Positions 318-37,935 of a DNA stretch of 40,191 bases are shown piece by piece; positions within the stretch are counted from its first letter, which is position 1; every line of letters begins with the position of its first letter. The notes beneath the pieces were generated by a model that was not told the DNA's origin, did not search any database, and worked only from the letters and a program-made list of their open reading frames with translations. Location: positions 1 to 40,191 of the IMG/VR virus record IMGVR_UViG_3300027707_000040, one strand, 5' to 3'. This stretch comes from a virus (lineage: Duplodnaviria > Caudoviricetes). A program made the translations under genes and the position numbers.

Positions 318-710
318 TTAATAAACTCCTCCGTCAATGAGTGGCTCATCAAGTGTATTGGACGGTGTGATTACACTTGTTACACTAGGACTAAAATCAA
401 TTTGACCTTCAAGCACACGCGTAACTTTAAGTGTTGATGTTTGTATAATTTCAATGTCATACAAGTAACGCCCTGGCTTGATAGCTTGTGTCTCGGCCGA
501 GGATAGAGAAACCAGCAGTTGCCCAAGCGTGGTAGGGCTTGCGACGGTTACCGTAAAACTGTATGCACCAGTGGAAGCGTATGATTTGCGAATCTTGCCG
601 CGTGCGGTGTATCCGCTTAAATTTGTGTCAAAGGCGTTGCCGGTGCCTACACTAACAACGGTGCTAAAGTGCGATCCTTGATCGGCATATAAGTCTGCGT
701 ACATTGCCAT
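318..710 (-). CDS. Small virion structural protein (Ig/BppU-like), conserved in T4-like phages
   Basis: DQGSxF...[14 protein letters not shown]...GRYLYDIEI...RVLEG pattern and C-terminal IDGGVY; preceded by a TATAAATA late promoter. Confidence 0.7.
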
Positions 711-716
711 ATACGG

Positions 717-724
717 TATTTATA
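717..724 (-). promoter_or_regulatory. T4-type late promoter TATAAATA
   Basis: + strand tatttata at 717-724, 6 nt upstream of the ATG at 710. Confidence 0.8.
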
Positions 725-784
725 ATAAACTTTTTTCTATATATAAATTATGCATATTCAAAACCGATTTTTAAGTTAAATGAT

Positions 785-1378
785 ATGAACAAGAAAAAAA
801 TGGCGATAATTGGAACTGGTGGAGATGTAATTGAAAAAGAAAGAGGAGAATTCTTAAATGAGAATTTTAATGAAATTGTCATTATGAACCAATCTATTTT
901 TAAGATGAACGATTATAACAGATATCTTGGTGATCCTACAATATGGGCCTGCTGTGGATGGTATAACAGTGATCCGATATTTGATCCTACGCTAGAAGAG
1001 CAAAGCAAAATTCATGATATTATAGCACAATCTAAAATCCATGAAACATGGTATAACACAGTATATGATTCTTCTCTATTTAATTTTACTGTCCCACCTT
1101 ATATTAAAACACGTAAAATTAGCAATTATAAATTAGATAATCATTCATATCACTCGCTTGGCTTACAATCATTATTGTATGCAGTTACAGCGGATTATGA
1201 ATTGTATTATTTTGGTATTGATTCATATCGCAAATCATATCATTTTTATAAAAATGATGATAAGCCCGAAAACATGGGAAAAATAGCACTTGAACATTCA
1301 TGCTATCTAGCAGAAAATCGAATTATTAAAAAACTAATAGCAGATGAAAAATTAAAACACATAGATACACTATTATGA
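785..1378 (+). CDS. Glycosyltransferase, GT29/sialyltransferase-like
   Basis: Probable start ATG at 785 (the ORF-track extension overlaps the divergent promoter region). AIIGTGGDV..ERGEFL..F.EIV.MN resembles sialylmotif L, SLGLQSLLYA...LYYFGIDSY resembles sialylmotif S, and HFY resembles motif III. Confidence 0.6.
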   Translation: MNKKKMAIIGTGGDVIEKERGEFLNENFNEIVIMNQSIFKMNDYNRYLGDPTIWACCGWYNSDPIFDPTLEEQSKIHDIIAQSKIHETWYNTVYDSSLFNFTVPPYIKTRKISNYKLDNHSYHSLGLQSLLYAVTADYELYYFGIDSYRKSYHFYKNDDKPENMGKIALEHSCYLAENRIIKKLIADEKLKHIDTLL

Positions 1379-2163
1379 ATATGTTTACTACTCGCATCAA
1401 CTTGGTTGAATTAAATGTCACCGAATTGTGCACGCGTAAATGCTGGTTTTGCCCACGGTATGATAGTAAAGTATATCCTAATCAAAACAAACACATGTCT
1501 CGTGAAACCTTTGACCAGGTTTTGCACTCATTGCAATCTTCAAACTATAAAGGCCAAATATGTTGCAGTGGTTTTTCCGAGCCTCTTATGTGTAAAGATA
1601 TTATGTATGGTTTGGAATTATTGTCAAAGCACTATCAGACAATACTCATAACCAATTTTGATTTGCTGACAATTGATAAATTAAAACTGTTGGATTCATT
1701 TGGACTGTTTGAACTTAAAATTGATCTTTATGACAATGAATCTCAGTATGAAAAGTTATTGGACATGTTGAGTGAAAGTAATTATACTTCTAAAAATTTA
1801 ACAATCAAAAAGGTGTATGAAGCTAAAACATTAGAGTTTTATAATCGAGGAGGTACTGCTCCATTTGATAGCGCTTTTGGTGTAAACCCTAACCGCCCAT
1901 GCCACATTGCGTTTTATAAAGCAATGATTGATTGGAACGGTAATTACTTACTGTGTCATTCGGATTGGCATCGAGAATCTGAAATATCAAAAGCAAGTTT
2001 GAACGTTAAAAACTTAACATTAGAACAATATCTAAAAAGCAATGCATATTTAACATTTGTTAAAAGTATGTTGAATACTCAAAGAAATGGTTTAAACCCA
2101 TGCGCTAAATGTGATATTGGTGGAATTAAAGAAGGTCAACTGTGGAACCATGATGAAGCTTAA
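1375..2163 (+). CDS. Radical SAM protein with SPASM/twitch domain
   Basis: CTRKCWFC (CxxxCxxC), SGFSEPL, and C-terminal PCH...IDWNGNYLLC...PCAKCD. Confidence 0.9.
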   Translation: MNMFTTRINLVELNVTELCTRKCWFCPRYDSKVYPNQNKHMSRETFDQVLHSLQSSNYKGQICCSGFSEPLMCKDIMYGLELLSKHYQTILITNFDLLTIDKLKLLDSFGLFELKIDLYDNESQYEKLLDMLSESNYTSKNLTIKKVYEAKTLEFYNRGGTAPFDSAFGVNPNRPCHIAFYKAMIDWNGNYLLCHSDWHRESEISKASLNVKNLTLEQYLKSNAYLTFVKSMLNTQRNGLNPCAKCDIGGIKEGQLWNHDEA

Positions 2164-3115
2164 AAATAAAGAAGTTCGTATGGAACCAACAAATTTGTGC
2201 AACTATCATTGCACGATGTGTCCCAGAGAAAAGCATACTCGTAAAAAAGGAATTATGAGTATGCAATTGTATAATGGTATCATTGATCAGGTTATAACAA
2301 TGGGCGCAACCAAAATTACATTAACCAATTTTGGAGAACCTTTTATTGATCCTACACTAGAAGAAAAAATTGCTATAGCTACAAAAAATGGCTTAAAAAC
2401 ATATGTAATAACAAATGCTTCATTGTTACACTCGCCATCACAATATGACGTTGGATTATCCAAAATTGAAAGTGCTGTAAAAAATGGATTAAGTGAATTG
2501 CGTTTAAGCTTTTATGGATTTTCAAAAGGTGAATATGAAAAAACAATGAAAGGAGGCCATTATGAAACCACTCTTCAAAATATAAAACTTCTTAAAGACA
2601 TAAAGAATCGCTATAAAAGCATTGAAGTAAGTCATTTTATACTAGACTTTGATGGTGATGTTGCAATAGATAAATGTCCAGATGTAATACGTGATACGGT
2701 TGATTATTATGAAATATGGAAACCACACAACTTTGGTGATGGGAAGCAATACCGCTCTTTAGATGCTAATGTAGGCAAAAAGTCGTGTGGCCGCCCTCAA
2801 AGTGGCCCATTGCAAATCAACTGGAATGGAATAGTTGTTCCATGCTGCTATGATTATAATGAATCAATTAAACTTGGAGATGCGTCCAAACAAACATTAG
2901 AAGAGATTCTTAAAGGAGATGCTTATAAATCATTGCGCGAATCACACAACGCTAATGAATATAGCAAGCATTCATATTGCAATAATTGTGATCAGCTGTT
3001 GTGCAATAAATCTGAAAACAGTATTGTATATAGTACTAATCCAATTCATTTAAACATGGCGCCAGTTGATATTGTTAACCGAACAAATACCAGCCCAGAG
3101 GTATCTTTAGTTTAA
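2150..3115 (+). CDS. Radical SAM protein with SPASM/twitch domain
   Basis: CNYHCTMC, NFGEPF, ITNASLL, and C-terminal CGRP...INWNGIVVPCCYD...LGD...YCNNCD; likely start ATG at 2150 or 2153. Confidence 0.9.
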   Translation: MMKLKNKEVRMEPTNLCNYHCTMCPREKHTRKKGIMSMQLYNGIIDQVITMGATKITLTNFGEPFIDPTLEEKIAIATKNGLKTYVITNASLLHSPSQYDVGLSKIESAVKNGLSELRLSFYGFSKGEYEKTMKGGHYETTLQNIKLLKDIKNRYKSIEVSHFILDFDGDVAIDKCPDVIRDTVDYYEIWKPHNFGDGKQYRSLDANVGKKSCGRPQSGPLQINWNGIVVPCCYDYNESIKLGDASKQTLEEILKGDAYKSLRESHNANEYSKHSYCNNCDQLLCNKSENSIVYSTNPIHLNMAPVDIVNRTNTSPEVSLV

Positions 3116-3879
3116 TAGTTTCTTATGCATTCCTTTTCATACATAATTTGAAAAGCTTCTAAAATATCAAACTCAAAAGGAGTTTGTTTTGCAATTTGAG
3201 CCACATTATCAGAAACATGGTAATCATTTAATATTTGACTCTGTATTACACGGATATCGCTTCCGTGAATACAATCTATTTTGTCCTTTTGGCCGCATAC
3301 ATTACCATGTAAGTATATGGATGCTTTCTTCCAAGGAATATAGTATTTGCCTTTTCCCCTAAAGTGTTTGTTATAATAATGTTCTATATTACAAGATATA
3401 TGAGGATCATTTAATGTAATTTCAACATTCTTTAACATGGTTCTGGTATTTAATGTATTTCTTAATAACGCAACTCCTGCGTCTGAATTGCCATATGTAA
3501 TTATCTTTTTGTTTAACATATGGTCCTCCACTTCATTAAGCAATTTTAATAATGTATCATTACATAGAAAGGCGTCGGGATCAAGATAAAGTGCGGTCTC
3601 ATTCTCATTTAATCCACTTAAAAAATTTAGCCAACATGCAGGTTGACTGCTCATTGGATTATATTTTATAGGGTTTTTTCCATAAAATGAATCTTCGTAT
3701 CCTATACATTTTACATTTAAGTCCAACTTTTCAAATTCATCTGGTATATTGGTAATGATTGTAAGATCATCACACCACTTTTTGTTTATTTTTATCCATA
3801 GTGGTATTAACTTTTCGATATAAAAAGCGCGGCATTGATTATTATGCGATGTGACGAATGATGTAAATATCTTACTCAT
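3112..3879 (-). CDS. Putative GT-A fold nucleotide-sugar transferase
   Basis: LYLDPDAF (DxD-like), SDAGVALLRNT motif and late His (CIHG) typical of GT-A enzymes; cluster context. Confidence 0.55.
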   Translation of the reverse strand: MSKIFTSFVTSHNNQCRAFYIEKLIPLWIKINKKWCDDLTIITNIPDEFEKLDLNVKCIGYEDSFYGKNPIKYNPMSSQPACWLNFLSGLNENETALYLDPDAFLCNDTLLKLLNEVEDHMLNKKIITYGNSDAGVALLRNTLNTRTMLKNVEITLNDPHISCNIEHYYNKHFRGKGKYYIPWKKASIYLHGNVCGQKDKIDCIHGSDIRVIQSQILNDYHVSDNVAQIAKQTPFEFDILEAFQIMYEKECIRNY

Positions 3880-4790
3880 AATGATGCAAATGTTTCTTGG
3901 TCTGTTAATGTTAATCGGTGAAACAGCTGAGAGCCAAAGAAATATGGTTTAAGCGCATATCCTTTGTATGTTGCTGACTGACAATTTAATAGCGCAAAGT
4001 TTCCAGCTGCAGAGACAATACTATAACCCGATTCCGAAAGACATATCTTAACCTGTTCAAATTCTTTGTAGAGTTTATGTAATAAACTCTGATTTTTAAT
4101 GATGGAATACACCAACTTCAACGTGATTGTGTTTAAAAACATTGGTCTTGTTTGATTCAGTTTGTGTATAACTTCATTATTATTTGATATGCATACCCCA
4201 AACCTCATGCCAGTCAGCCCACCCATTTTACTAAAAGTTCTTACCGTAATACAATTCTCTGGAAGCTGGTGCATTGTTTGCAGCGGATTAATGTATGCTT
4301 CATCAATGATAAGATACTTATAATGATTAGACAATTTCAATATTTCATTTAAGGAAAAAACATGGCCTGTAGGGTTATGCGGACTTACTAAATATAACCC
4401 ATGGTTGCTTTTGTCTGTGGGTATTTCTATATCAAATACTTTGGTGTATACATAATCAACTTTTATTATTTTTTTACCATAATGCTCACAATAGAAACTA
4501 AACAATTCAAATGTTGGATGCTGAACAACCCAGGCTGAAACATCCAATTGTTGTATAAGTTCTTTAAGTATAATTTCTGAGCCATGATTTACATAAAGCA
4601 TATGATCAGAACAACCAACAGCGTCAGCGTACATTCTTTGAGAGTCATATGCAGAAGTATATGTAAAATAATCTTTATGCGTGATGCATGCCAATGTTGT
4701 TATATCCCGTATAAATGATGGACATATACATTCATTACGGTCTAAACGCAAGGCATGATCATCTGCAATTATATTGTCTCTCTTGCTCAA
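3876..4790 (-). CDS. PLP-dependent class I/II aminotransferase (HisC/CobD-like)
   Basis: LRLDRNE, SPHNPTG, LIIDEAY and RTFSKMGGLTGMRFG (PLP-binding Lys); start codon (TTG) uncertain. Confidence 0.88.
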   Translation of the reverse strand: MSKRDNIIADDHALRLDRNECICPSFIRDITTLACITHKDYFTYTSAYDSQRMYADAVGCSDHMLYVNHGSEIILKELIQQLDVSAWVVQHPTFELFSFYCEHYGKKIIKVDYVYTKVFDIEIPTDKSNHGLYLVSPHNPTGHVFSLNEILKLSNHYKYLIIDEAYINPLQTMHQLPENCITVRTFSKMGGLTGMRFGVCISNNNEVIHKLNQTRPMFLNTITLKLVYSIIKNQSLLHKLYKEFEQVKICLSESGYSIVSAAGNFALLNCQSATYKGYALKPYFFGSQLFHRLTLTDQETFASL

Positions 4791-5352
4791 GCTGTTTTAT
4801 TTTAAAAGGATTGCCAACACCAGCATAGTGTAATAAAAATGGATCATCATAATTATGCAAGTTGTATATGGTGTTTACATTATTATTTATGGCTATTCGC
4901 AATGGAAGTGTTTTTATTACTTCATTAAACACAGCTTCTTCTGCAAGAAAACTCATATCACCATCAATCTTAAGCTGTCTTATGCGTTTTAACACATTTA
5001 TAGAGTTTAGTGTATTATACCATATGCTGCATCCAATCAATGTGAAACCATTAGCCAATTCAGCGCAAACACAATCAGACAGCCCTTTATATTTTTCCAA
5101 CAAAGGTCGTATGTTATAATTTGTGTCTATAACAACGCTGTCATAGTCGCATATGATAACAGCATCATACATGCAAATATGTTTTAGTATCAAATCAATT
5201 TTAGACCAACTTGTTTTTTCGTTGGACACCTTAATAGACTCAAAAATAAAATCTATATTATTACTCCTACAAAAATCTATTTTTGATTTTTCAAATGAGG
5301 ATAACACACTTCTAAAATAATAATCAGCGTATGTTATTAGGCAAACCTTCAT
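4759..5352 (-). CDS. Glycosyltransferase, GT34 (galactosyl/mannosyltransferase)-like
   Basis: SWSKIDLI, AVIICDYDSVV (DxD), EEAVF and FLLHYAG motifs. Confidence 0.7.
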   Translation of the reverse strand: MKVCLITYADYYFRSVLSSFEKSKIDFCRSNNIDFIFESIKVSNEKTSWSKIDLILKHICMYDAVIICDYDSVVIDTNYNIRPLLEKYKGLSDCVCAELANGFTLIGCSIWYNTLNSINVLKRIRQLKIDGDMSFLAEEAVFNEVIKTLPLRIAINNNVNTIYNLHNYDDPFLLHYAGVGNPFKIKQLEQERQYNCR

Positions 5353-5935
5353 CAGGAATTATTGAAACTAAAAATGAGTTAAATTGCAATTGCTCTGAAA
5401 ATAGAGCAGGCCAATTTAATAGTATAACTTTTAGCGAATTTGACTTTTTAAGCAATTCTATATAATCATTAAATACTTTACTTATAATCTCTTTAAGATT
5501 GCTCCTTTGTTCATTGGTCAAATCGTCATCTTCATCAATGTACTCAACCTGAGTATTATAGTGTTCTAATACTATCCGATTGATATTCTCTTTTAATAGT
5601 GTTAAATCAATTTCTTCTATACTATTGCATGCCAATCCAAGAGAGCGCAATCCATGCAGCAATTTATATGTTACATGAGGAGCATCCGATTGATCTATTG
5701 TATTTTTATCAGCAGCAGAGAATATTGAATTTTCATTTGCCAATTTAATATAATCCAAATCGCGAGACATGTCGGCCATGCCTTGGTCTATATAACTGGA
5801 AATTACAACAGGCAACACCAAATTTACCTTAACTTTTTTTGAAGTAATGGCGTCACGCAGCACAATGTATGCGTCGGTTTGCTCTATAATCTCGCCTCTA
5901 TAAATCTTATTTTGCGTTGAAAGCTTAATATTCAT
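5324..5935 (-). CDS. Hypothetical protein
   Basis: 203-aa ORF tightly packed between co-oriented neighbours; no recognised motif. Confidence 0.6.
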   Translation of the reverse strand: MNIKLSTQNKIYRGEIIEQTDAYIVLRDAITSKKVKVNLVLPVVISSYIDQGMADMSRDLDYIKLANENSIFSAADKNTIDQSDAPHVTYKLLHGLRSLGLACNSIEEIDLTLLKENINRIVLEHYNTQVEYIDEDDDLTNEQRSNLKEIISKVFNDYIELLKKSNSLKVILLNWPALFSEQLQFNSFLVSIIPDEGLPNNIR

Positions 5936-5941
5936 ATTGTC

Positions 5942-6502
5942 TTACCTTATGGTGACGCTTTGGTTACCGCCACCATAGGTAACGTGTATTTCACGATAAA
6001 CAGCAACACCACTAATACTACATCTTATAGTTATACCATAGTTCTGAGCATTGCGACCGGCAAAATTTCCATACTGATAGGTTATCCACCCATTCACGTA
6101 ATAAACGTCCTGTCTAATCCCTTCAAGCGTCACCGTAAAGGAATAGTTGCCGTACGAGTCAGGTTGTAAATATTTAGTGTAAACCGTGTAATGTATTACG
6201 CCGTTGTCATTCCAGGCATAATTGCTTGTAGTTTCTTGAGTGGAACTTAAGTCCGCCTCAATCGCATAATAGTTTATAGCCTGAAATATGTATCTAAAAT
6301 CGGTGACATCGTGGCCAAACCCGGTATGCCAACCTATTTGATCTTTTGTTTCAAGAGACGGCTGATAGCGAGAAGACACGGTCCCACCCACACCAATATA
6401 GTCGCTATAGTAGGCGAGATCGCCGCGCGCCGCTGTATGGATATGCTTCAGCTTAAATATACTGTCCAAATCGGTTGTTCCAACGGTGAAGCCTGTTGCC
6501 AT
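5942..6502 (-). CDS. Putative tail-fibre-associated protein
   Basis: Directly downstream of the tail fibre gene; Tyr/Gly/Thr-rich beta-type composition; N-terminal MATGFTVGTTDLDSIF. Confidence 0.5.
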   Translation of the reverse strand: MATGFTVGTTDLDSIFKLKHIHTAARGDLAYYSDYIGVGGTVSSRYQPSLETKDQIGWHTGFGHDVTDFRYIFQAINYYAIEADLSSTQETTSNYAWNDNGVIHYTVYTKYLQPDSYGNYSFTVTLEGIRQDVYYVNGWITYQYGNFAGRNAQNYGITIRCSISGVAVYREIHVTYGGGNQSVTIR

Positions 6503-6505
6503 ATA

Positions 6506-8800
6506 TTAATTTTTTAATTTTACCAGCGCGGCCAATTCTTTAACTGCCTCAATAAGAACTGACGTTATTTTGCCATAATCAACTGCCATAATTAGTCCCT
6601 GTTCATCTCTGCATACAAACTCTGGAAGCACTTCATTTACTTGTTCGGCAATAAGACCAATATCGCTCTGCCCAGACTCTTTCCAATCAAATGTTACGCC
6701 TTGCAGTTTTTCAACCAGGCTCAATGCATTGCTTAACGGCTGTACATTTTGTTTGTATCGCAGCGACGAAGTAACATAAAAGCTACTTGCCTGCATTTGA
6801 GAAGGAGTATTGATTACACCTCCAAAAGCCGCATAGCCATCATTAAGATTAATCGATAACGCATAGCGGGCGCCGGGGAAGGGCCCGGGGTTGGCCCAGG
6901 TGGTGGAATTGACGCCAGTCCCTGGCAAAACATAAAACGTGTTTTCGTTCACATGCAGCATTGCGCTGCGGTGATTGGTGTCCTGCATGTAAATGGTAGG
7001 AGAGGCATTGTTTACATAAAGTTGGCCGGTTGTCAGGATTGACCCGTTGTTAAAAGTGACTGTCCCGCCGCCCTGTCCATCTATAAATCTTAAAGTGTTT
7101 CTGTATGAATCAATGGTTTGATTTGGCCAGCTGCCGCTTCCACCCACCAAATCTATTTGGCCGCCTTCGTCAGCGCCGGTATTGCGGTTGATTGTTAACG
7201 AACCTCCACAACTTACCGCGCCACTTGCAGTTAGCGTGGTTACGCCAGTTACTGCACCGCCAGCCACAATGGCGCCATTGCTAGTCAAGCTGCCACAAGT
7301 TACCGCGCCGCTTGCGGCTAATGTGGTTACACCGGTTACTGCACCGCTCACAGCTAATGTGGTTACGCCAGTTACCGCACCGCCCACAGCTAATGTGGTT
7401 ACGCCGCTTACTGCACCGCCAGCCACAATGCCGCCATTGCTAGTCAAGCTGCCACAAGTTACCGCGCCGCTTGCACCCAGTGTGGTTACGCCAGTTACTG
7501 CACCGCCAGCCACAATGCCGCCATTGCTAGTCAAGCTGCCACAAGTTACCGCAGCGCTTGCGGCTAATGTGGTTACGCCAGTTACTGCACCGCCAGCCAC
7601 AATGCCGCCAGTGCTAGTCAAGCCGCCGCAGCTTACCGCGCCGCTTGCACCCAGTGTGGTTACACCAGTTACCGCACCGCCAGCCACAATGCCGCCAGTG
7701 CTAGTCAAGCCGACGCAGCTTACTCTGCCACTTGCGGCTAATGTGGTTACGCCAGTTACTGCACCGGTTGTGCCTACACTAAAGGCGTTGTTTATTTTAA
7801 GGGTGCCTCCGCTAAGCTCACCAGCTGTTCCAAAGTTGGTGCTAGCGTCGAGTGTCAGGCCTGAAATACCACTAATAGCACCAGCATTAGATATCGTAAC
7901 CGCGCCAATTTTCAACGAATTGCCAGTGATCTCACCAGATGCAGTAACCGCGCCAAGCACATCCAACTTAACACCTATAGCAGCAGTCTTTCCAATACCA
8001 ATATTTCCAGCACTGTCAATGCGCATGCGTTCAGTTAACACGGTGCCTGTGTTTGTAGAGAATGTCAAAATGCCAGGCACCGCGGTCGCGTTTACTGTTC
8101 CCTCAGCTTTTGCTTCAATTGCCGCAGCTGTAATATTTAGCGAAGCTGTTGCATACCCTTGCCAATCAATTATTCCAAGCGAATCACCGTTCGTGACAAT
8201 TGCTCTAGAGCCAGCAGTGCCTCTTGACTTGACAAATGCCAACACTCCGCCGTGAGCGTCAGTGTTCGATTGAAATATAGCAACAGACGGTGTAGGTGAA
8301 GCCACGGTGTTGGATCCCATCACTCCAATACGAGGCGATAGCAGACCCTGGGTGTTGGTGGCCCGGTTAGTAAATTGCAATGGCGCAGTGTGGCCAACAA
8401 TTACTCGGCCACTTGATTCTACTATAAAAGGCGAGCCATTGCCAGTATCAGGAATGTATAAAGCGGCGCCGCTGCCAGCTTGGGTAATACGCATTGCGTC
8501 AACGGTGGTATTTGCTTTAACCGTTAAAGCAACGGCACTGGCGACGCCTGGGCCGGTGGCGCCTCCGCTGCCACCCGCAATCATAACAGCACCAGTGCTG
8601 TCCCAATATGGTCGCCCATTGCTTAAATTTGCAGGGCTTAAACCGCCAGTGCCAGTGGCTCCATCAAGAAGAACAATTAAACCGTTGGTTTTCTTTCGCC
8701 AGCTGTCAAATGTATCGGTGATAAGCACGCCAGCAGCAGCAGGCAACTGGGTGTTTGCATACGTTGCGAATGCTGTATAATCGGTGGAAAAAATGGCCAT
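6506..8800 (-). CDS. Tail fibre protein with C-terminal intramolecular chaperone (peptidase S74)
   Basis: N-terminal TDTFDSWRKKTN motif, ERMRIDSAGNIGIG fibre motif, and C-terminal SSLRYKQNV..L..AL..V..LQGVTFDWK...IGLIAEQV...P..V...VDYGK....LIEAVKEL. Confidence 0.9.
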   Translation of the reverse strand: MAIFSTDYTAFATYANTQLPAAAGVLITDTFDSWRKKTNGLIVLLDGATGTGGLSPANLSNGRPYWDSTGAVMIAGGSGGATGPGVASAVALTVKANTTVDAMRITQAGSGAALYIPDTGNGSPFIVESSGRVIVGHTAPLQFTNRATNTQGLLSPRIGVMGSNTVASPTPSVAIFQSNTDAHGGVLAFVKSRGTAGSRAIVTNGDSLGIIDWQGYATASLNITAAAIEAKAEGTVNATAVPGILTFSTNTGTVLTERMRIDSAGNIGIGKTAAIGVKLDVLGAVTASGEITGNSLKIGAVTISNAGAISGISGLTLDASTNFGTAGELSGGTLKINNAFSVGTTGAVTGVTTLAASGRVSCVGLTSTGGIVAGGAVTGVTTLGASGAVSCGGLTSTGGIVAGGAVTGVTTLAASAAVTCGSLTSNGGIVAGGAVTGVTTLGASGAVTCGSLTSNGGIVAGGAVSGVTTLAVGGAVTGVTTLAVSGAVTGVTTLAASGAVTCGSLTSNGAIVAGGAVTGVTTLTASGAVSCGGSLTINRNTGADEGGQIDLVGGSGSWPNQTIDSYRNTLRFIDGQGGGTVTFNNGSILTTGQLYVNNASPTIYMQDTNHRSAMLHVNENTFYVLPGTGVNSTTWANPGPFPGARYALSINLNDGYAAFGGVINTPSQMQASSFYVTSSLRYKQNVQPLSNALSLVEKLQGVTFDWKESGQSDIGLIAEQVNEVLPEFVCRDEQGLIMAVDYGKITSVLIEAVKELAALVKLKN
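7205..7770 (-). repeat. Coding tandem repeats in the tail fibre (about 87-bp/29-aa units plus about 39-bp/13-aa sub-units)
   Basis: Near-identical copies of gccattgctagtcaagctgccacaagttaccgc; protein unit GAVTGVTTLAASGAVTCGSLTSNGGIVAG. Confidence 0.9.
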
Positions 8801-22153: not shown

Positions 22154-22936
22154 TTAGTTTAGTTTAATTTTGCTACCTTTGATTACCGCATCACCGCTGC
22201 TTACAACATTAATTCCTTTGCCTTCAACACTAGTGACACCTGTTGAAGAGTATGTTGAACCAGCACTTGAAGTTACGCTGATGCCTTTGGCCGAAATGGC
22301 GGTAGGCCCGCTAGATGCAATATCAATGGACGGCGCAGCAATGGTGCTCTTGCCAGTTGACACTGTTTTATTTTCGCCAAGCACGGTGGTCAAGTTGATT
22401 CCATGAATGGTACTTGTATTGGTGCTATACACATCGCACCGGTTTTCACCGCCAACAAAAAGAGTATTCTTACCGCTTACATGCAATGAATAGTCAGTGT
22501 GCACAGTTACCTTAGCGCTAGCGCCAATGTTCATTGCATATTCATCAGCAATTTCCATTACATATTGACCGCCCACTTTAGTACGGCGTACGCCTTTTAC
22601 GGTTTCATTGTAATCGCCATTAACCTCAAGATTATAATTGCCATTGACAATGGTATTGCAGTTGCCCACCACGGTTATATTAACATTGCCTTCAACAGTA
22701 ATGTTGTCTTCGCCATGAACCACTTTATAGCCGTTGCCATATACGCTAATTGTGCGATCGCCAGTGGAGTTAACCTCTTCACTGGTTCCACTCTTGTGTT
22801 GTCTTAGGAGCCGCTCATTGCCAAGAGTATCATCAACTTCAAAAATATGGCCTCCGCGTGTTTGCGTAACATTGTTAAATGGATATGTTGAACCATCAGT
22901 TGGCTGCGGCGGGCCCCATGTTTCATTGTTTGCCAT
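22154..22936 (-). CDS. gp5: Baseplate spike gp5 C-terminal part (beta-helix needle)
   Basis: YPFNNVTQTRGGHIFEVDDT.GNERL...HKSGT followed by VxGN 8-residue repeats; likely start ATG at 22936. Confidence 0.85.
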   Translation of the reverse strand: MANNETWGPPQPTDGSTYPFNNVTQTRGGHIFEVDDTLGNERLLRQHKSGTSEEVNSTGDRTISVYGNGYKVVHGEDNITVEGNVNITVVGNCNTIVNGNYNLEVNGDYNETVKGVRRTKVGGQYVMEIADEYAMNIGASAKVTVHTDYSLHVSGKNTLFVGGENRCDVYSTNTSTIHGINLTTVLGENKTVSTGKSTIAAPSIDIASSGPTAISAKGISVTSSAGSTYSSTGVTSVEGKGINVVSSGDAVIKGSKIKLN

Positions 22937-22941
22937 AGGTG

Positions 22942-22949
22942 TATTTATT
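22942..22949 (-). promoter_or_regulatory. Late-promoter-like AATAAATA ahead of the gp5C gene
   Basis: One mismatch to TATAAATA, overlapping the upstream stop codon, 5 nt before ATG 22936. Confidence 0.5.
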
Positions 22950-23952
22950 AAGCAATTATGGTACAAGTACTGCGAACCAGTGATATTTTGCGTGTCTTTG
23001 CATAACAGCCATTGCCTTCACGGCTGCCAGCCGCATTTGTATTGCCTTCAATGGTAGAAAAAGAACCGTTGGCATCGCTGTCGCTTGTGGCTATGCCAAT
23101 ATGACTAAACCCAAAAATCACAAGATCGCCAGCATATACTTTAGATGGGTTGGTAGTCAATTTGACAACACTGCTTTTGCTGCGTGCCCATGCTTCATAG
23201 CCGCCATTTTTAAATGCGCTTGCGCTTTTTGGGCGATCAGCTTCGCTAAACACACCGCTCTGTTGTATACACCAACAAACAAATGCTGCACACCATGGCG
23301 CGCGCGCATTGTATCCATCTGAATAACTTGTGGCTTTCCACATTTCAGCTATACCAGGTCCTTGGTTTTCTGTTGTCTCATATGTATTGCCAACCTTACT
23401 TTGCGCGGCTTGTATAATTGCTGTTTTGGCTGCGCTGTTGACAACTATTGGCGGCCCAGCTTGTTCAAGGCTGCTGCACGCGCCTCCAGTGCCTACCGCG
23501 CAGCCATTAAAGGTTTGTGCGCCAGTTGCTTGTGCAGCATAGCCTGGGCCGCTTCTAGCATTTATTGTTGCACCGGCTGGTGTATCGCTGCCAGCTCTGC
23601 TTGGAAATACACCGTGTGGATCGCCAAAACCTTGGCCAACTGTGCCCAATCCGTTGTCATAACCAGTGGCGCTTGGTATACTCCCAGTTACAACAGGATC
23701 TTGCAATTCGGTGCCATCTCTAAAGAAACCAAATACCCACGAGCCGGCAACAAGGCCAGTTGCGCTTTGGCCAATGCCGCTAACACACGGGCTGGTAACT
23801 GGCATTATACAGGTGGCCCATGGCAAATCTTCTTTAGGCAATTCGGCTGTGTCATCGGTGTGATAACCAAGACATCTTACACGAACGCGACCTTGTTGCA
23901 ACGGGTCTCCTACATCTTCAACCACAGCCGTAAACCAATTGGTAATATTCAT
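22948..23952 (-). CDS. gp5: Baseplate spike gp5 N-terminal OB-fold fused to a CHAP amidase/peptidase domain
   Basis: WFTAVVEDV.DPL..GRVRVRCLGYH...LPWA...GSWVFGFFRDG...Q.PVV.GSI (gp5 OB); PWCAAFVCWC...GDLVIF..SHIGI...TIEGNT (CHAP Cys/His). Confidence 0.88.
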   Translation of the reverse strand: MNITNWFTAVVEDVGDPLQQGRVRVRCLGYHTDDTAELPKEDLPWATCIMPVTSPCVSGIGQSATGLVAGSWVFGFFRDGTELQDPVVTGSIPSATGYDNGLGTVGQGFGDPHGVFPSRAGSDTPAGATINARSGPGYAAQATGAQTFNGCAVGTGGACSSLEQAGPPIVVNSAAKTAIIQAAQSKVGNTYETTENQGPGIAEMWKATSYSDGYNARAPWCAAFVCWCIQQSGVFSEADRPKSASAFKNGGYEAWARSKSSVVKLTTNPSKVYAGDLVIFGFSHIGIATSDSDANGSFSTIEGNTNAAGSREGNGCYAKTRKISLVRSTCTIIA

Positions 23953-29392: not shown

Positions 29393-29920
29393 ATGCCATC
29401 AACATCAATTCAAGACCTGCAAAGCACCATCAAACGTCATGCAGGATTGTCGCGTGACAATCGGTTTCGTGTTATAATATCAAACCCAATTGATGGCGAA
29501 GATGGCAAAGACCTGTCTTTGCTCTGTGAGAGTTGTACACTGCCCGGACGGCAAATAGTAACCACGGACTTTTCAGTGTGGCGCAACGAAAACAAAATTC
29601 CCACTGGCTATACTGATGAGGATGTTACTTGTGTATTTTATTTGACAAACGACTATTATGTTAAAAATCTTTTTGACAAATGGCTGCTAAAAATAATAAA
29701 TCCTGACACATACTTCGCTAATTATACAAATACTTTTGCAAAGACCATTTTGTTGCAGCAGTTGAATGAAGCCGATCAACCGGTGTATCAAGTTACTCTG
29801 CCATATGCATGGCCAGTTGGTGTTAACTCTATTGAATTGGACAACTCATCAGAAAATAGTGTTCAAAAGTTAACGGTGGTGTTTACATACAACACCTGGT
29901 CATCACAAAAACTACCTTAA
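29393..29920 (+). CDS. Tail tube-like protein (gp19/gp54 family)
   Basis: GL.R.NRFRV, LCESCTLPGR, FDKW and WP..V..IEL.......QKLTVVF.Y..W motifs. Confidence 0.75.
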   Translation: MPSTSIQDLQSTIKRHAGLSRDNRFRVIISNPIDGEDGKDLSLLCESCTLPGRQIVTTDFSVWRNENKIPTGYTDEDVTCVFYLTNDYYVKNLFDKWLLKIINPDTYFANYTNTFAKTILLQQLNEADQPVYQVTLPYAWPVGVNSIELDNSSENSVQKLTVVFTYNTWSSQKLP

Positions 29921-29941
29921 AATTATATTATAAATTAAATT

Positions 29942-30649
29942 ATGGCATTACCAATCCTAGAATCCCCAAAGTATACTGTTGAAATTCCTTCCACAAAGAA
30001 GGCTATTGAATATCGTCCTTTTCTTGTAAAAGAAGAAAAGATCTTGCTTATGGCGCAAGAGTCACAAGAGTCGCGTGAAATGTTAAATGCAATGAAAGAT
30101 ATTATTCGTGCATGTACATTTGAAAAAGTCGATGTTAATGTGTTAACATCGTTTGACCTTGAATATATTTTCTTAAAACTTCGCAGCAAAAGCGTTGGAG
30201 AAATTAGCAGTGTCAACATCAAGTGCAGCGCTTGTGAAGTGCCAAACCCAGTTGATATTAACCTTGATGAAGTGGTTGTAAAATTTGATGACAGCGTATC
30301 CAAGACAATTATGATAACCGATAGTGTTGGCGTCAATATGCGTTACATTCGCGTTAAAGATATGGGAGCGCTAACCGATGACAAAAAGAGCCAAAGCGAT
30401 CTTATCAATGAAGTTGTTATTGCAAGTATTGAAAGTATCTTTGATGCTGATAAAGTATACCCAAGTGAAAATTCATCCAAGGCTGAATTGATTGTTTTCA
30501 TCAACAGCCTTAATCGCTCACAAATGCAAAAGATTGAAGCATTTATTGCGGCCGTCCCATCGCTTAAAGAAACTGTAAAATTTAAATGCAAAGGCTGCGG
30601 CCATGACAACACATTGGAACTGTCTGGCACACAATCTTTTTTCGATTAG
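29942..30649 (+). CDS. gp26: Baseplate hub assembly protein gp26
   Basis: MALP.L..PKY...IPST...I.YRPFLVKEEKILLMA, FDLEYIFLKLRSKSVGE, two CxxC motifs, ends SFFD. Confidence 0.9.
   Translation: MALPILESPKYTVEIPSTKKAIEYRPFLVKEEKILLMAQESQESREMLNAMKDIIRACTFEKVDVNVLTSFDLEYIFLKLRSKSVGEISSVNIKCSACEVPNPVDINLDEVVVKFDDSVSKTIMITDSVGVNMRYIRVKDMGALTDDKKSQSDLINEVVIASIESIFDADKVYPSENSSKAELIVFINSLNRSQMQKIEAFIAAVPSLKETVKFKCKGCGHDNTLELSGTQSFFD
30637..30643 (+). promoter_or_regulatory. Candidate -1 ribosomal frameshift slippery heptamer T TTT TTC
   Basis: X XXY YYZ in the gp26 frame, one sense codon before the stop; the -1 frame is open into gp51. Confidence 0.65.
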
Positions 30650-30825
30650 CCCTCTCGCATGAATCACTGGTTAATTATTTCCAAACTAACTTTGCACTAA
30701 TGCAGCACCACAAATACTCATTGAGCGAATTGGATATGATGATACCATGGGAGAGGGAAATATACATTTCAATGCTTGTTTCACATCTTAAAGAAGAAGA
30801 ACAAAAGCGCAAAAATAGCAACTAA
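30643..30825 (+). CDS. gp51: Baseplate hub assembly protein gp51-like (not in ORF track; first ATG at 30700, probably also or instead made as a gp26 frameshift fusion)
   Basis: Manual translation: RLALSHESLVNYFQTNFALMQHHKYSLSELDMMIPWEREIYISMLVSHLKEEEQKRKNSN*, with the MQHHKYSL.EL..M.PWERE.Y motif. Confidence 0.85.
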   Translation, partial: RLALSHESLVNYFQTNFALMQHHKYSLSELDMMIPWEREIYISMLVSHLKEEEQKRKNSN

Positions 30826-30829
30826 AACA

Positions 30830-33208
30830 ATGGCCAATACTGAAACCAGTCAATTAGCAGAAGTAATCGCACAGCTTAAAAGTTTAAACCTTTCGCATCG
30901 CGTGTTGTCCGATACCATAGACGACAACAATAAATTGCTTGTTCGCAGTCTTTTGATTGATTCACAGGCCGAAGGTGAGCGTGTTGACAATGGTGGGCAG
31001 TTGTTATCTGTTGTCACCAGTTTGCGCCGTATGGTATCCGATATCAGCCGCACCAATAAAGAGTTGTTAGAATTTTTTACCAGCAATGATATGCAGCAAG
31101 AAGAAAACCGTAAAGATCTTCTTGCTGCATTGCGTGGGCGTGATAAGGAAGATATAAAGCCTAAAGCAAAACCAAAGAAAGATAAAAAAAATAGCGAAAG
31201 CGGCCTTGGCGGCATTCTTGCTTTTGCGGCCAGTTTAATTGCTGGCGCCGTTGTAGGATTTGTTACTGAAACCGCAACTATGTTTGCAGCTCTAATTAGA
31301 GACCCCAAAATATATAAAAATATAAGTTTGGGTGTCTCTAAAATAGGCAACATTTTAAAAGGTTTTGGGCAATACATTTCACGCATTGCTACGGCAGCCT
31401 CTAAGTTTTTGGCCAATACCAAAATAGGAACGGCTATAATTAAAGGATTTAATAGCATACGCACTATACTATCTTTATTATTTACTGGTGTAAAACTTAT
31501 TGGTGAAGGTTTAGTTGGTTTAGCCATGGAATCTGCACTTGTCAAATCTGTAACAAATACAATATCTCAAATAACCGCAGCATGGGCTAGATTCACTGGT
31601 GCATTGCGCGCTGTAAGCGATATAATTCGTCCACTGTTTGGCGCGGCTGAGGAAGGTGTCACCATAGGTACGCGTGTGGCCAAGGTGTTTCCAAATATTG
31701 CAAAATTTTTTACAACGGTAGGCAATATATTTGGAGTATTTGCTCGAGGATTTAAAACCGGAGTTTCAATAGGTAAAGCAATAGCTCGTGTATTGCCAGC
31801 TGTGTTTGGCTTGCTTAAAGCTCTTGCCAAACCATTGGTTTTAATTACTGCAATATATGAAACGGTAATGGGCGCATTTGAAGGATATAAAGAAAGCGGC
31901 GTTCTTGGCGCAATCAAAGGAGCAATTAGTGGATTGTTAATTGGTCTTGTTGGAGGTCTTGTTGATTTGGTAAAAGATATAGTTTCGTGGATTGCTAATA
32001 AGTTAGGCTTTGAAAATTTTTCAAAGTTGCTTGACAGCTTCTCCTTTTCGCAACTACTTAAAGATGGTGTAGATGCAATCTTTGATACAGTCATATACGC
32101 ATTTGACTGGTTTAAATCAATCTTTTCGTTTGAAAAATTCTCCAAAGCCTTTGAAAATTTTAACGTGGCTGGCATATGGGCAACTTTTGTTGGTGGTATG
32201 CTGGATACGTTAAAAGGAGGAGTATCATGGATTGCTACTATGCTTGGCGCATTTGACATTGCAAATGCTTTGGATAATTTTTCGTTTACTGACTCTATCA
32301 ATAAAGGTTTAGAAATGGTTTTTGCTTTACATGCAAAGATTTTGAATTGGATTACCAATATGTTTTCATGGGAAAACATATCTAGACTGTTTGAAAATTT
32401 TTCGGTAACTGGCATATGGTCAGGTTTTTATGGAGGAATTCTTGATACGGTCAAAGGAGCGGTTTCTTGGATGGCCGCACTATTTGGCTTTGACACCATA
32501 AGCAAATATTTAGATAGCTTTTCTTTTGCTGATATATACAAAACTGTATTTGATGCTGTAGGCGAAGCAATTGATGGCTTCATTGATTGGATAATGAAGC
32601 TACCGCAATTAATTACCAATCTTGGTGCTCAAATGGAAGCTATGACTAGCAGCGCATTAAGTGGCATTGGCAATCTCGCTGAAGGGTTTGCAAAAAGTGT
32701 ATTAGCGAGTGTGTTGCCTAAACAATCTGACACTAGCGTGTTTAATCCAATGCATTGGGTTGCAAAAGCAATACCTGACAGCATTTATGAATATGCCGGC
32801 CTTAAGGCTGCTGGAAAAGAAGCTGGCGGGGCGGCGCCTGCGGCAAGTGGCGGCACACCCATGACTGGCGCCCAATCATTAACCGATGGCGAAAAATCGT
32901 CAAAAGCTAAAGAAGCGGGATATGAATCATGGAATGATTATGAGGCCTCTGGGTGGAAATATAAAACACCCGCACCGGATTCTGCGGCATCATTAACACC
33001 AGCAGCAGGTACGGCATCCATAACAAATACGGCAAATACCACTGGCGCCCAACTGATGAGCAGCGGTAGTAATATATCAGTATCACCGGTAATTGTTAAT
33101 AATTATGGTGGCAACATTAGCAATACAACACAAAGCTCAGTAAACAATACCAACAGCTCATACGATCCAATAATGACTGGCAGTGCAATGGGTTTTGCAA
33201 GCGTATAA
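30830..33208 (+). CDS. Tail tape measure protein (gp29-like)
   Basis: About 790 aa, helical and Ala/Gly/hydrophobic-rich with periodic Trp/Phe; follows gp26/gp51; likely start ATG at 30830. Confidence 0.75.
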   Translation: MANTETSQLAEVIAQLKSLNLSHRVLSDTIDDNNKLLVRSLLIDSQAEGERVDNGGQLLSVVTSLRRMVSDISRTNKELLEFFTSNDMQQEENRKDLLAALRGRDKEDIKPKAKPKKDKKNSESGLGGILAFAASLIAGAVVGFVTETATMFAALIRDPKIYKNISLGVSKIGNILKGFGQYISRIATAASKFLANTKIGTAIIKGFNSIRTILSLLFTGVKLIGEGLVGLAMESALVKSVTNTISQITAAWARFTGALRAVSDIIRPLFGAAEEGVTIGTRVAKVFPNIAKFFTTVGNIFGVFARGFKTGVSIGKAIARVLPAVFGLLKALAKPLVLITAIYETVMGAFEGYKESGVLGAIKGAISGLLIGLVGGLVDLVKDIVSWIANKLGFENFSKLLDSFSFSQLLKDGVDAIFDTVIYAFDWFKSIFSFEKFSKAFENFNVAGIWATFVGGMLDTLKGGVSWIATMLGAFDIANALDNFSFTDSINKGLEMVFALHAKILNWITNMFSWENISRLFENFSVTGIWSGFYGGILDTVKGAVSWMAALFGFDTISKYLDSFSFADIYKTVFDAVGEAIDGFIDWIMKLPQLITNLGAQMEAMTSSALSGIGNLAEGFAKSVLASVLPKQSDTSVFNPMHWVAKAIPDSIYEYAGLKAAGKEAGGAAPAASGGTPMTGAQSLTDGEKSSKAKEAGYESWNDYEASGWKYKTPAPDSAASLTPAAGTASITNTANTTGAQLMSSGSNISVSPVIVNNYGGNISNTTQSSVNNTNSSYDPIMTGSAMGFASV
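31940..32600 (+). repeat. Three 80-aa (240-bp) repeats in the tape measure
   Basis: The D(S/N)FSF motif starts at 32033, 32273 and 32513; the GG..D.VK..VSW(I/M)A..(L/F)G units recur. Confidence 0.85.
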
Positions 33209-37524: not shown

Positions 37525-37935
37525 TCACAAAAGAGACCTTTTATTTTCTTCATAAGCCTCAATTAAGCTTTCTTTATAATTGTCAAAGTCATCATCAAAT
37601 GTATCATAGCTTACTACTATTTCTTCATTGGGGTAAATATCTTTAGCGGCTATCATTTCATTCTTGCCTGTTGCTATAGAGTTAGGATTACTACTATGAT
37701 TTTGAAAAACTGAATGGTCACAGGAAGAATACAAATAATCTCCTTCTGCCCAAAAATATTTATTTACAAACTTCTTTTGGATTTCCGATAAAGATTTGTA
37801 TTTTTGCTTATCAACTTTTATATCAAATCCTTCCGCAAATTTCCATATGATGGTACCTTTTGCAACTAAGTTTTTAGAAAATAAGCCAAGGCCCATACCA
37901 GGAGATTGCGCTAAATATGTTTCTATTAAAAGCAT
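37525..37935 (-). CDS. SET-domain protein (putative lysine methyltransferase)
   Basis: GLGLFS...V.KGT.IW, FQNHS.NPN and AAKDI.PNEEI.VSY motifs. Confidence 0.85.
   Translation of the reverse strand: MLLIETYLAQSPGMGLGLFSKNLVAKGTIIWKFAEGFDIKVDKQKYKSLSEIQKKFVNKYFWAEGDYLYSSCDHSVFQNHSSNPNSIATGKNEMIAAKDIYPNEEIVVSYDTFDDDFDNYKESLIEAYEENKRSLL

What the first reader, a model, noticed from the sequence alone, without database searches (positions are those of the whole stretch)
30600..30832. Candidate programmed -1 frameshift fusing gp26 to gp51 just upstream of the tape measure (lambda G/GT-like)
Seen: gp26 ends TCT TTT TTC GAT TAG, giving the heptamer T TTT TTC (30637-30643). The -1 frame reads RLALSHESLVNYFQTNFALMQHHKYSL...*, and between its upstream stop (TGA 30604) and ATG 30700 it has no ATG, GTG or TTG. 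The stretch before that ATG (LSHESL.NY..TNFAL) looks like sequence I recall as conserved in gp51 homologues. Established: many long-tailed phages make tail-assembly chaperones as a G/GT -1 frameshift pair immediately before the tape measure gene. Inference: 'gp26' and 'gp51' here are a G/GT-type pair giving 235-aa and about 294-aa products. I am not aware of this being annotated in T4-like phages but could not check.
Basis: partly seen in the sequence, partly recalled or inferred. Interest (0 to 1): 0.82.

Follow-up and report, generated by a model that had tools for sequence, protein, structure and literature searches.

The report
T4-like tail-chaperone frameshift, already published
One tail-assembly gene of this freshwater T4-like phage likely makes a short (235-residue) and a long (294-residue) chaperone because some ribosomes would slip back one base on a strictly conserved run of T's; the idea was published for T4-like phages in 2022, and the only extra seen here is a predicted RNA stem just behind the slip site that likely helps the slip.

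Summary
Observation confirmed. gp26 ends on the in-frame heptamer T TTT TTC. The -1 frame runs on for 60 codons into a gp51-like domain whose first ATG lies 19 codons inside the conserved part. All 80 of 80 related viral loci carry T TTT TTY; in 78 of 78 with enough DNA the gp51-like frame is in -1 phase. T4 gp51 is the fused form, T4 gp26 the short form. The top three of 48,161 PDB chains matching the gp26 model are tail assembly chaperones. A -1 ribosomal frameshift is very likely but not shown experimentally.

It is not new. Vladimirov, Gautam and Davidson (Virology 2022) identified these genes. I could not read that paper, but two citing papers credit it with poly-T -1 sites in T4-like chaperone genes and the two-gene T4 variant. 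This scan has noted the frameshift before (614 findings, at least 545 genomes).

Extra detail: a long-range stem (30650-30661 with 30746-30757) starts 6 nt after the heptamer and covaries at synonymous positions. Many relatives also have an upstream SD-like motif, which this phage lacks. Two earlier scan notes report such a stem. The 'tape measure' label downstream is plausible but unconfirmed.

The parts
29929..29936 (+). T4 late-promoter-like site (one mismatch to the recalled consensus), 5 nt before the gp26 start; weak
   Evidence: one-mismatch matches are not above chance window-wide (113 found, 98 expected)
29942..30649 (+). gp26-like gene, 235 aa; predicted short chaperone (TAC-N)
   Evidence: PF12322 E 1e-57; phrog_150 positions 5-232 of 282; residues 1-95 of the model match 3FGX, 2OB9, 3KLU
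30637..30643 (+). slippery heptamer T TTT TTC, one codon before the gp26 stop
   Evidence: T TTT TTY in 80 of 80 loci and T TTT TTC in 11 of 14 cultured phages
30643..30825 (+). -1 frame, 60 codons: gp51-like C-terminal domain (TAC-C)
   Evidence: phrog_634 E 2e-28 and phrog_150 positions 231-281; profile matches T4 gp51 residues 207-245; H6, L9, N11, N16, F17 conserved upstream of Met20
30650..30661 (+). 5' arm of a predicted long-range RNA stem, starting 6 nt after the heptamer; candidate frameshift stimulator
30746..30757 (+). 3' arm of that stem (11 of 12 positions can pair)
30830..33208 (+). 792-aa Ala/Gly/Ser-rich ORF directly downstream; likely tape measure, by position and size only
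   Evidence: family hits weak and not diagnostic (phrog_27688, phrog_315)
29393..29920 (+). tail-tube-family gene directly upstream of gp26
   Evidence: phrog_3629 and phrog_45 'tail tube'; PF06841 just below its cut-off

Best explanation
This is likely a programmed -1 ribosomal frameshift: most ribosomes would stop at the gp26 TAG and make a 235-residue chaperone, while a minority would slip back one base on U UUU UUC and add the 60-residue gp51-like domain, giving a predicted 294-residue protein. Both Phe tRNAs can re-pair with UUU UUU after the slip (follows from the sequence). A stem that starts 6 nt downstream likely pauses the ribosome on the site (inferred from folding and covariation). 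By analogy with lambda gpG/gpGT, the short form would coat the tape measure protein and the long form would link it to the tail tube (inferred; not tested). Phage T4 makes the same short/long pair from two genes, 26 and 51. Shown: sequence, phase, conservation, homology to T4 gp26/gp51, fold resemblance. Inferred: the slip itself, its rate, the role of the stem, the binding partners.
For: (1) T TTT TTY in frame near the gp26 stop in 80 of 80 loci, fetched with peptide patterns that do not include the junction. (2) Silent-site constraint in 69 distinct junctions: first Phe is TTT in 69 of 69 (background 66%); the base before it is T in 69 of 69 (38 expected). (3) gp51-like frame in -1 phase in 78 of 78 loci with enough DNA; 2 of 80 are cut by the contig end. 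(4) Over the 19 codons after the site the -1 frame is open in 65 of 65, the +1 frame in 5 of 65, the 0 frame in 0 of 65. H6 (64/65), L9 (63/65), N11 (60/65), N16 (60/65) and F17 (65/65) lie upstream of Met20 (56/65) in an ungapped register from the slip site. (5) 39 of 65 loci have no ATG, GTG or TTG at or before codon 6; the window has none before codon 20. (6) T4 gp51 matches phrog_150 over positions 14-280, T4 gp26 over 14-235. The -1-frame profile hits gp51 residues 207-245 (E 3.6e-7 in a 9-protein set) and not gp26. T4 gene 26 ends GAG TTC TTT, without the slippery run. (7) Top three of 48,161 chains: 3FGX (Z 8.0, rmsd 3.6, 85 aligned), 2OB9 (Z 6.8, 4.4, 84), 3KLU (Z 6.8, 4.2, 85); PMC9603447 calls all three tail assembly chaperones. 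(8) Stem: window -31.1 kcal/mol, z -2.6. Positions 7-18 pair at 0.79 against 0.57 under synonymous resampling, above own null in 43 of 47 loci; other stretches do not differ. In 15 loci picked on non-silent positions only, third-position pairs are Watson-Crick in 35 of 60 (permutation mean 22.6, 0 of 5000). Pair 11-110 is C-G 6 times, T-A 6 times, C-A once; off-register controls are null.
Against: No protein, ribosome-profiling or reporter data. The -1 phase alone does not discriminate, because stop/start overlaps give the same phase. 14 of 65 loci have an ATG at or before codon 6, and several GenBank records start 'gp51' there. 3 of 14 cultured phages have imperfect heptamers (phiM9 T TTT TTG, T751 G ATT TTC, VPALA A CTT TTC). 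No single RNA structure is common to all loci: the alifold consensus over 80 nt is empty, and the long-range register is the best one in only 14 of 47. The window lacks the upstream SD-like motif of its relatives. Fold Z-scores of 6.8-8.0 are middling and cover only residues 1-95. Related loci are not independent, so the p-values overstate the evidence. U UUU UUU-type sites are weak shifters in E. coli (PMC5009743).
Confidence: 0.9

Rival explanations
1. The small gp51-like ORF is a separate gene, translated by coupling or re-initiation after the gp26 stop, or from ATG 30700.
For: Many GenBank records annotate it so. 14 of 65 loci have an early ATG and 26 of 65 some early start codon. Many relatives have an SD-like motif near the end of gp26.
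Against: No start codon before codon 20 in the window and none early in 39 of 65 loci. A start at 30700 would drop the conserved H6-F17 stretch, which T4 gp51 keeps. It does not explain the silent-site constraint on the T run. The SD-like motif ends about 9 nt before the heptamer, too far from the early ATGs for initiation and near the 9-14 nt reported for -1 stimulators.
Confidence: 0.05
2. The long form arises by transcriptional slippage: RNA polymerase adds a U in the T run.
For: The site is a homopolymer run; 9 of 69 junctions have 8 T.
Against: The run is only 6 T in 31 of 69 (including this phage), 7 in 29, and never above 8; efficient polymerase slippage usually needs longer runs (recalled). 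A stem at ribosome spacing and an SD-like motif fit a ribosome, not a polymerase. The one RNA-library contig over the site shows no gap (cannot show minor variants).
Confidence: 0.04
3. The heptamer is a by-product of a conserved Phe-Phe C-terminus in AT-rich genomes and the -1 frame is a relic.
For: T4 gp26 also ends with FF, so the residues may matter to the protein.
Against: T4 codes them TTC TTT without a run, whereas 69 of 69 junctions here use T TTT; the -1 frame is open and conserved in 65 of 65.
Confidence: 0.01

Closest known systems
TAC-N / TAC-NC genes of T4-like phages (Vladimirov, Gautam and Davidson 2022, Virology 566:9-15, PMID 34826709; seen only as a title in reference lists and through passages of PMC10885494 and PMC12846349)
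   Same: Same claim. PMC12846349 section 3.8.3 cites it for polyT -1 frameshift signals in TAC-N genes of T4-like phages. PMC10885494 cites it for some T4-like phages carrying a short gene plus a fused long gene instead of a frameshift. That the abstract names genes 26 and 51 is my recall.
   Different: This is one more, uncultured genome. Whether the paper describes the downstream stem or the SD-like motif I could not see.
Phage lambda gpG/gpGT and the conserved tail-chaperone -1 frameshift (Atkins et al. 2016, PMC5009743, passages; primary papers seen only in its reference list)
   Same: Short and long product from one gene by a -1 slip near the stop; between a tail-tube-family gene and a long ORF; N-terminal domain with the chaperone fold.
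   Different: gp26 is 235 aa, with about 140 further residues and Cys pairs beyond the roughly 95-residue chaperone fold; the heptamer is U UUU UUY; contractile tail. The 2016 review still lists T4 as the exception.
Phage T4 gp26 (208 aa) and gp51 (249 aa), 'hub assembly chaperones' (Leiman et al. 2010, PMC3004832, passages)
   Same: Same family (PF12322 / phrog_150); gp26 equals the short form, gp51 the fused long form.
   Different: T4 has two divergently oriented genes and no slippery site.

Membership tests
lambda G/GT-type frameshifted tail assembly chaperone | In-frame XXXYYYZ heptamer at the end of the first ORF, with an open -1 frame behind it | tested here: met
lambda G/GT-type frameshifted tail assembly chaperone | Site and phase conserved across diverged relatives | tested here: met
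   80 of 80 and 78 of 78 loci, most at 37-50% identity; T TTT TTC in 11 of 14 cultured phages
lambda G/GT-type frameshifted tail assembly chaperone | First ORF has the tail-assembly-chaperone fold | tested here: met
   Model pLDDT 88.9; top three VIA-align rows 3FGX, 2OB9, 3KLU, Z 8.0/6.8/6.8, residues 1-95 only; middling Z
lambda G/GT-type frameshifted tail assembly chaperone | Lies between the tail tube gene and the tape measure gene | tested here: inconclusive
   Tube-family gene upstream. Downstream 792-aa ORF not named by any family. A long ORF follows in 23 of 40 loci; gp5 or UvsW is the next annotated gene in T751, VPALA and phiW-14
lambda G/GT-type frameshifted tail assembly chaperone | Frameshifted product is made at a low ratio | not testable with these tools
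   needs a reporter, ribosome profiling or mass spectrometry
lambda G/GT-type frameshifted tail assembly chaperone | Short form binds the tape measure, long form binds the tube protein, both absent from virions | not tested
   no complex prediction was run; virion content cannot be tested here
T4 gp26/gp51 family (PF12322, phrog_150, phrog_634) | Profile match of both parts | tested here: met
T4-type two-gene arrangement (separate gene 26 and fused gene 51) | A second, fused copy elsewhere in the genome | tested here: inconclusive
   one match only in the record, which is about 23% complete

The most novel reading that the evidence does not exclude
T4-like phages tune the short/long chaperone ratio with a modular, undescribed set of stimulators: a stem whose 5' arm always starts 6 nt after U UUU UUY but whose 3' partner has been swapped between lineages (about 25, 45 or 95 nt further on, all inside coding sequence), plus an optional upstream SD-like motif. 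In this phage the long-range stem would work without the SD motif.
Probability: 0.45. Interest if true: 0.5.

Novelty: new member of a known kind. Interest (0 to 1): 0.25.

Why it matters
For annotation: the 40-60-codon 'gp51' or 'hypothetical' ORF after gp26 in cyanophages and other T4-like phages is likely not a gene but the tail of a frameshifted protein, and 'baseplate hub subunit gp26' is likely a tail assembly chaperone. That reading is already in print. The 2022 work appears from its citations to be computational (my recall of the abstract), so the slip still seems to lack an experiment. The stem and SD-like signals found here give exact mutations for a cheap reporter test and would explain how a weak U-run shifts at a useful rate.

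Tried and rejected
Folding 40-80 nt after the site showed only weak hairpins, and an 80-nt consensus fold over 65 loci was empty; the stem appeared only with 130 nt. Sequence search of the gp26 profile against the PDB: 0 hits at E up to 5. Foldseek against the PDB: nothing at E 0.001 or better; against viral models only gp26-family and unnamed proteins among the rows shown. A +1 shift was rejected: that frame closes 5 codons on in the window and is open in 5 of 65 loci. An SD-like stimulator in this phage was rejected (-3.3 kcal/mol, weaker than the null mean of -4.5). A trade-off between SD strength and the long-range stem was not significant (p 0.19). RNA-library runs held only small shares of the stretch and only as contigs, so they say nothing on expression or minor indels; run X1, a possible source of this DNA, was left out. 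Sigma-70 and terminator scans added nothing at the junction. The 2022 paper is not held under DOI or PubMed id. Searches for papers; none lists a paper on a stimulator at this site, but subscription journals are missing and no supplements were seen.

Full report
Setting. The window is the whole held record, a 40,191-base linear fragment about 23% complete. Its best-matching sequencing runs are freshwater or lake metagenomes. It carries T4-like tail, baseplate and replication genes. Around the finding the order is head closure, DNA end protector, tail-tube-family gene, gp26-like gene (29942-30649), small gp51-like frame, 792-aa ORF, PAAR gene.

Observation. Alone this is weak: 64 of 12,661 codon positions in 34 window ORFs carry such a heptamer, and 2 of 34 ORFs end on one. 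The site is not an assembly error.

Conservation. One search kept the best 80 of 593 IMG/VR stretches, found with six peptide patterns that do not touch the junction; five are close to the window, the rest are 37-50% identical. All 80 have T TTT TTT (44) or T TTT TTC (36). The gp51-like frame is in -1 phase in 78 of 78; L019 and L024 end too soon. After removing identical junctions 69 remain. The first Phe codon is TTT in 69 of 69 (background 66%), and the silent base before it is T in 69 of 69 (38 expected). Where gp26 runs 3, 8 or 14 codons past the site (7 of 69), the -1 frame still joins at the site, not at the stop. In the 65 with at least 200 nt downstream, the -1 frame is open over the next 19 codons in 65, the +1 frame in 5. 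H6, L9, N11, N16 and F17 are nearly invariant upstream of the Met that gene callers use. 39 of 65 have no usable start codon at or before codon 6; 14 of 65 do have an ATG there. Relatives share ancestry, so these counts are not independent trials. Among cultured phages, 718 records match gp26. I picked 15 of the 60 rows shown, by hand for taxonomic spread, and added T4. One of the 15 is T4-type. The other 14 all have an open -1 frame of gp51-like size. 11 of them have T TTT TTC and three have imperfect sites. None of the 14 records annotates a joined gene in the stretch shown.

T4. phrog_150 has 282 positions. The window's gp26 covers 5-232 and the -1 frame covers 231-281. T4 gp26 covers 14-235 and T4 gp51 covers 14-280. 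Profiles built from the loci agree: the N-part profile hits T4 gp26 (E 1e-20) and weakly gp51 (2e-5); the -1-frame profile hits gp51 residues 207-245 only (9 proteins searched). T4 gene 26 has lost the run. So T4 hard-codes in gene 51 what this phage would make by a slip.

Fold. The gp26 model is confident (pLDDT 88.9, 57 sequences). Of 48,161 chains the best three are 3FGX, 2OB9 and 3KLU (Z 8.0, 6.8, 6.8; residues 1-95), all described as phage tail assembly chaperones in PMC9603447 (passages). The scores are middling, but three of three at the top is unlikely to be a common-arrangement effect. Foldseek and a sequence profile found nothing in the PDB.

Stimulators. Folding 30644-30775 gives -31.1 kcal/mol (z -2.6; 2 of 200 shuffles as good), closed by a stem of 30650-30661 with 30746-30757 that starts 6 nt after the heptamer. 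The usual spacer is 5-9 nt (PMC5009743). In 47 loci under 90% identity, positions 7-18 pair as a 5' arm at 0.79 against 0.57 under synonymous resampling, above own null in 43 of 47. Five stretches further downstream show no excess. The partner varies: about positions 103-114 in 32 of 65, 50-63 in 14, 32-44 in 15, none in 4. For the long-range class I picked 15 of 47 loci on the eight non-silent pairs alone (58-78% identical to each other). At the four third-position pairs they are Watson-Crick in 35 of 60, against 17 from codon usage and 22.6 from permutation (0 of 5000 each). Pair 11-110 covaries (Fisher p 0.004), 8-113 (0.04) and 17-104 (0.07) less so, and nine off-register controls do not. 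The fourth position (14-107) is a tolerated mismatch, also in this phage. An SD-like stretch 9-14 nt upstream is stronger than its synonymous null in 39 of 47 loci, against 12-22 of 47 at five control positions. This phage lacks it. That these signals stimulate the slip is inference.

Mechanism. Two Phe tRNAs on UUU UUC slip back onto UUU UUU while the ribosome is held by the stem; the fraction that slips bypasses UAG and adds the gp51-like domain. By analogy with lambda, where gpG binds the tape measure and the T part binds the tube protein (PMC5009743, passages), the pair would chaperone the tape measure during hub and tail assembly. T4 gp26 and gp51 are listed as hub assembly chaperones, and gp51 is absent from the particle (PMC3004832, passages; that paper also notes genetic support for gp26 being in the hub). 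Rivals are a separate small gene (0.05) and transcriptional slippage (0.04).

Prior art. [quoted passage not shown] I saw its title in five reference lists. PMC12846349 (section 3.8.3, read whole) cites it for polyT -1 signals in TAC-N genes of T4-like phages. PMC10885494 (passages) cites it for the short-gene plus fused-gene arrangement. That it names genes 26 and 51 and reports the frameshift in several T4-like groups is my recall of the abstract, echoed by earlier scan notes. Seven paper searches showed no paper on a stimulator at this site; the 2022 text and its supplements may hold one. This scan has 614 earlier findings with these words in at least 545 genomes, 40 that name the paper, and two notes on the long-range stem, which I saw after my own analysis.

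Verdict. Real, very likely a programmed -1 frameshift (0.9), one more member of a published kind. Interest 0.25; the stem is the only part that may be unpublished.

Noticed in passing
window 22154-23952 (- strand): The gp5 spike is split into two genes: Gp5 OB domain plus a CHAP domain (22948-23952), then a separate Gp5 C-terminal trimerisation gene with its own ATG just after two stops. A CHAP domain stands where T4 has lysozyme (recalled), and the split lies near where T4 gp5 is cut after folding (recalled).
   Followed up: partly
window 37525-37935 (- strand): Stand-alone 136-aa SET-domain protein (PF00856, E 2e-8), with no PHROG match; unusual in a bacteriophage.
   Followed up: no
window 704-6502: Cluster with two radical-SAM genes (1375-2163 with a weak SPASM hit, 2111-3115) and several unnamed ORFs next to tail fibre genes; possibly modification enzymes.
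   Followed up: no
L086 (Klebsiella phage T751) and L093 (Vibrio phage VPALA), end of gp26: Imperfect sites G ATT TTC and A CTT TTC with an open, unannotated -1 frame; the next annotated gene is gp5, not a tape measure. Suggests single-tRNA slippage and a relocated chaperone gene in Ackermannviridae-like phages.
   Followed up: partly
L044, L053, L063, end of gp26: The short form runs 8-14 codons past the slippery site before stopping, so the stop codon is not needed right behind the site.
   Followed up: partly
window 6506-8800 (- strand), end of ORF: This tail fibre ORF also ends on an in-frame heptamer (AAAAAAT); probably chance in an AT-rich genome.
   Followed up: no
window 30896-30916: Related contigs in runs X2 and X14 differ by clustered substitutions and balanced small indels near the start of the 792-aa ORF, while the junction 250 nt upstream is nearly invariant.
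   Followed up: no
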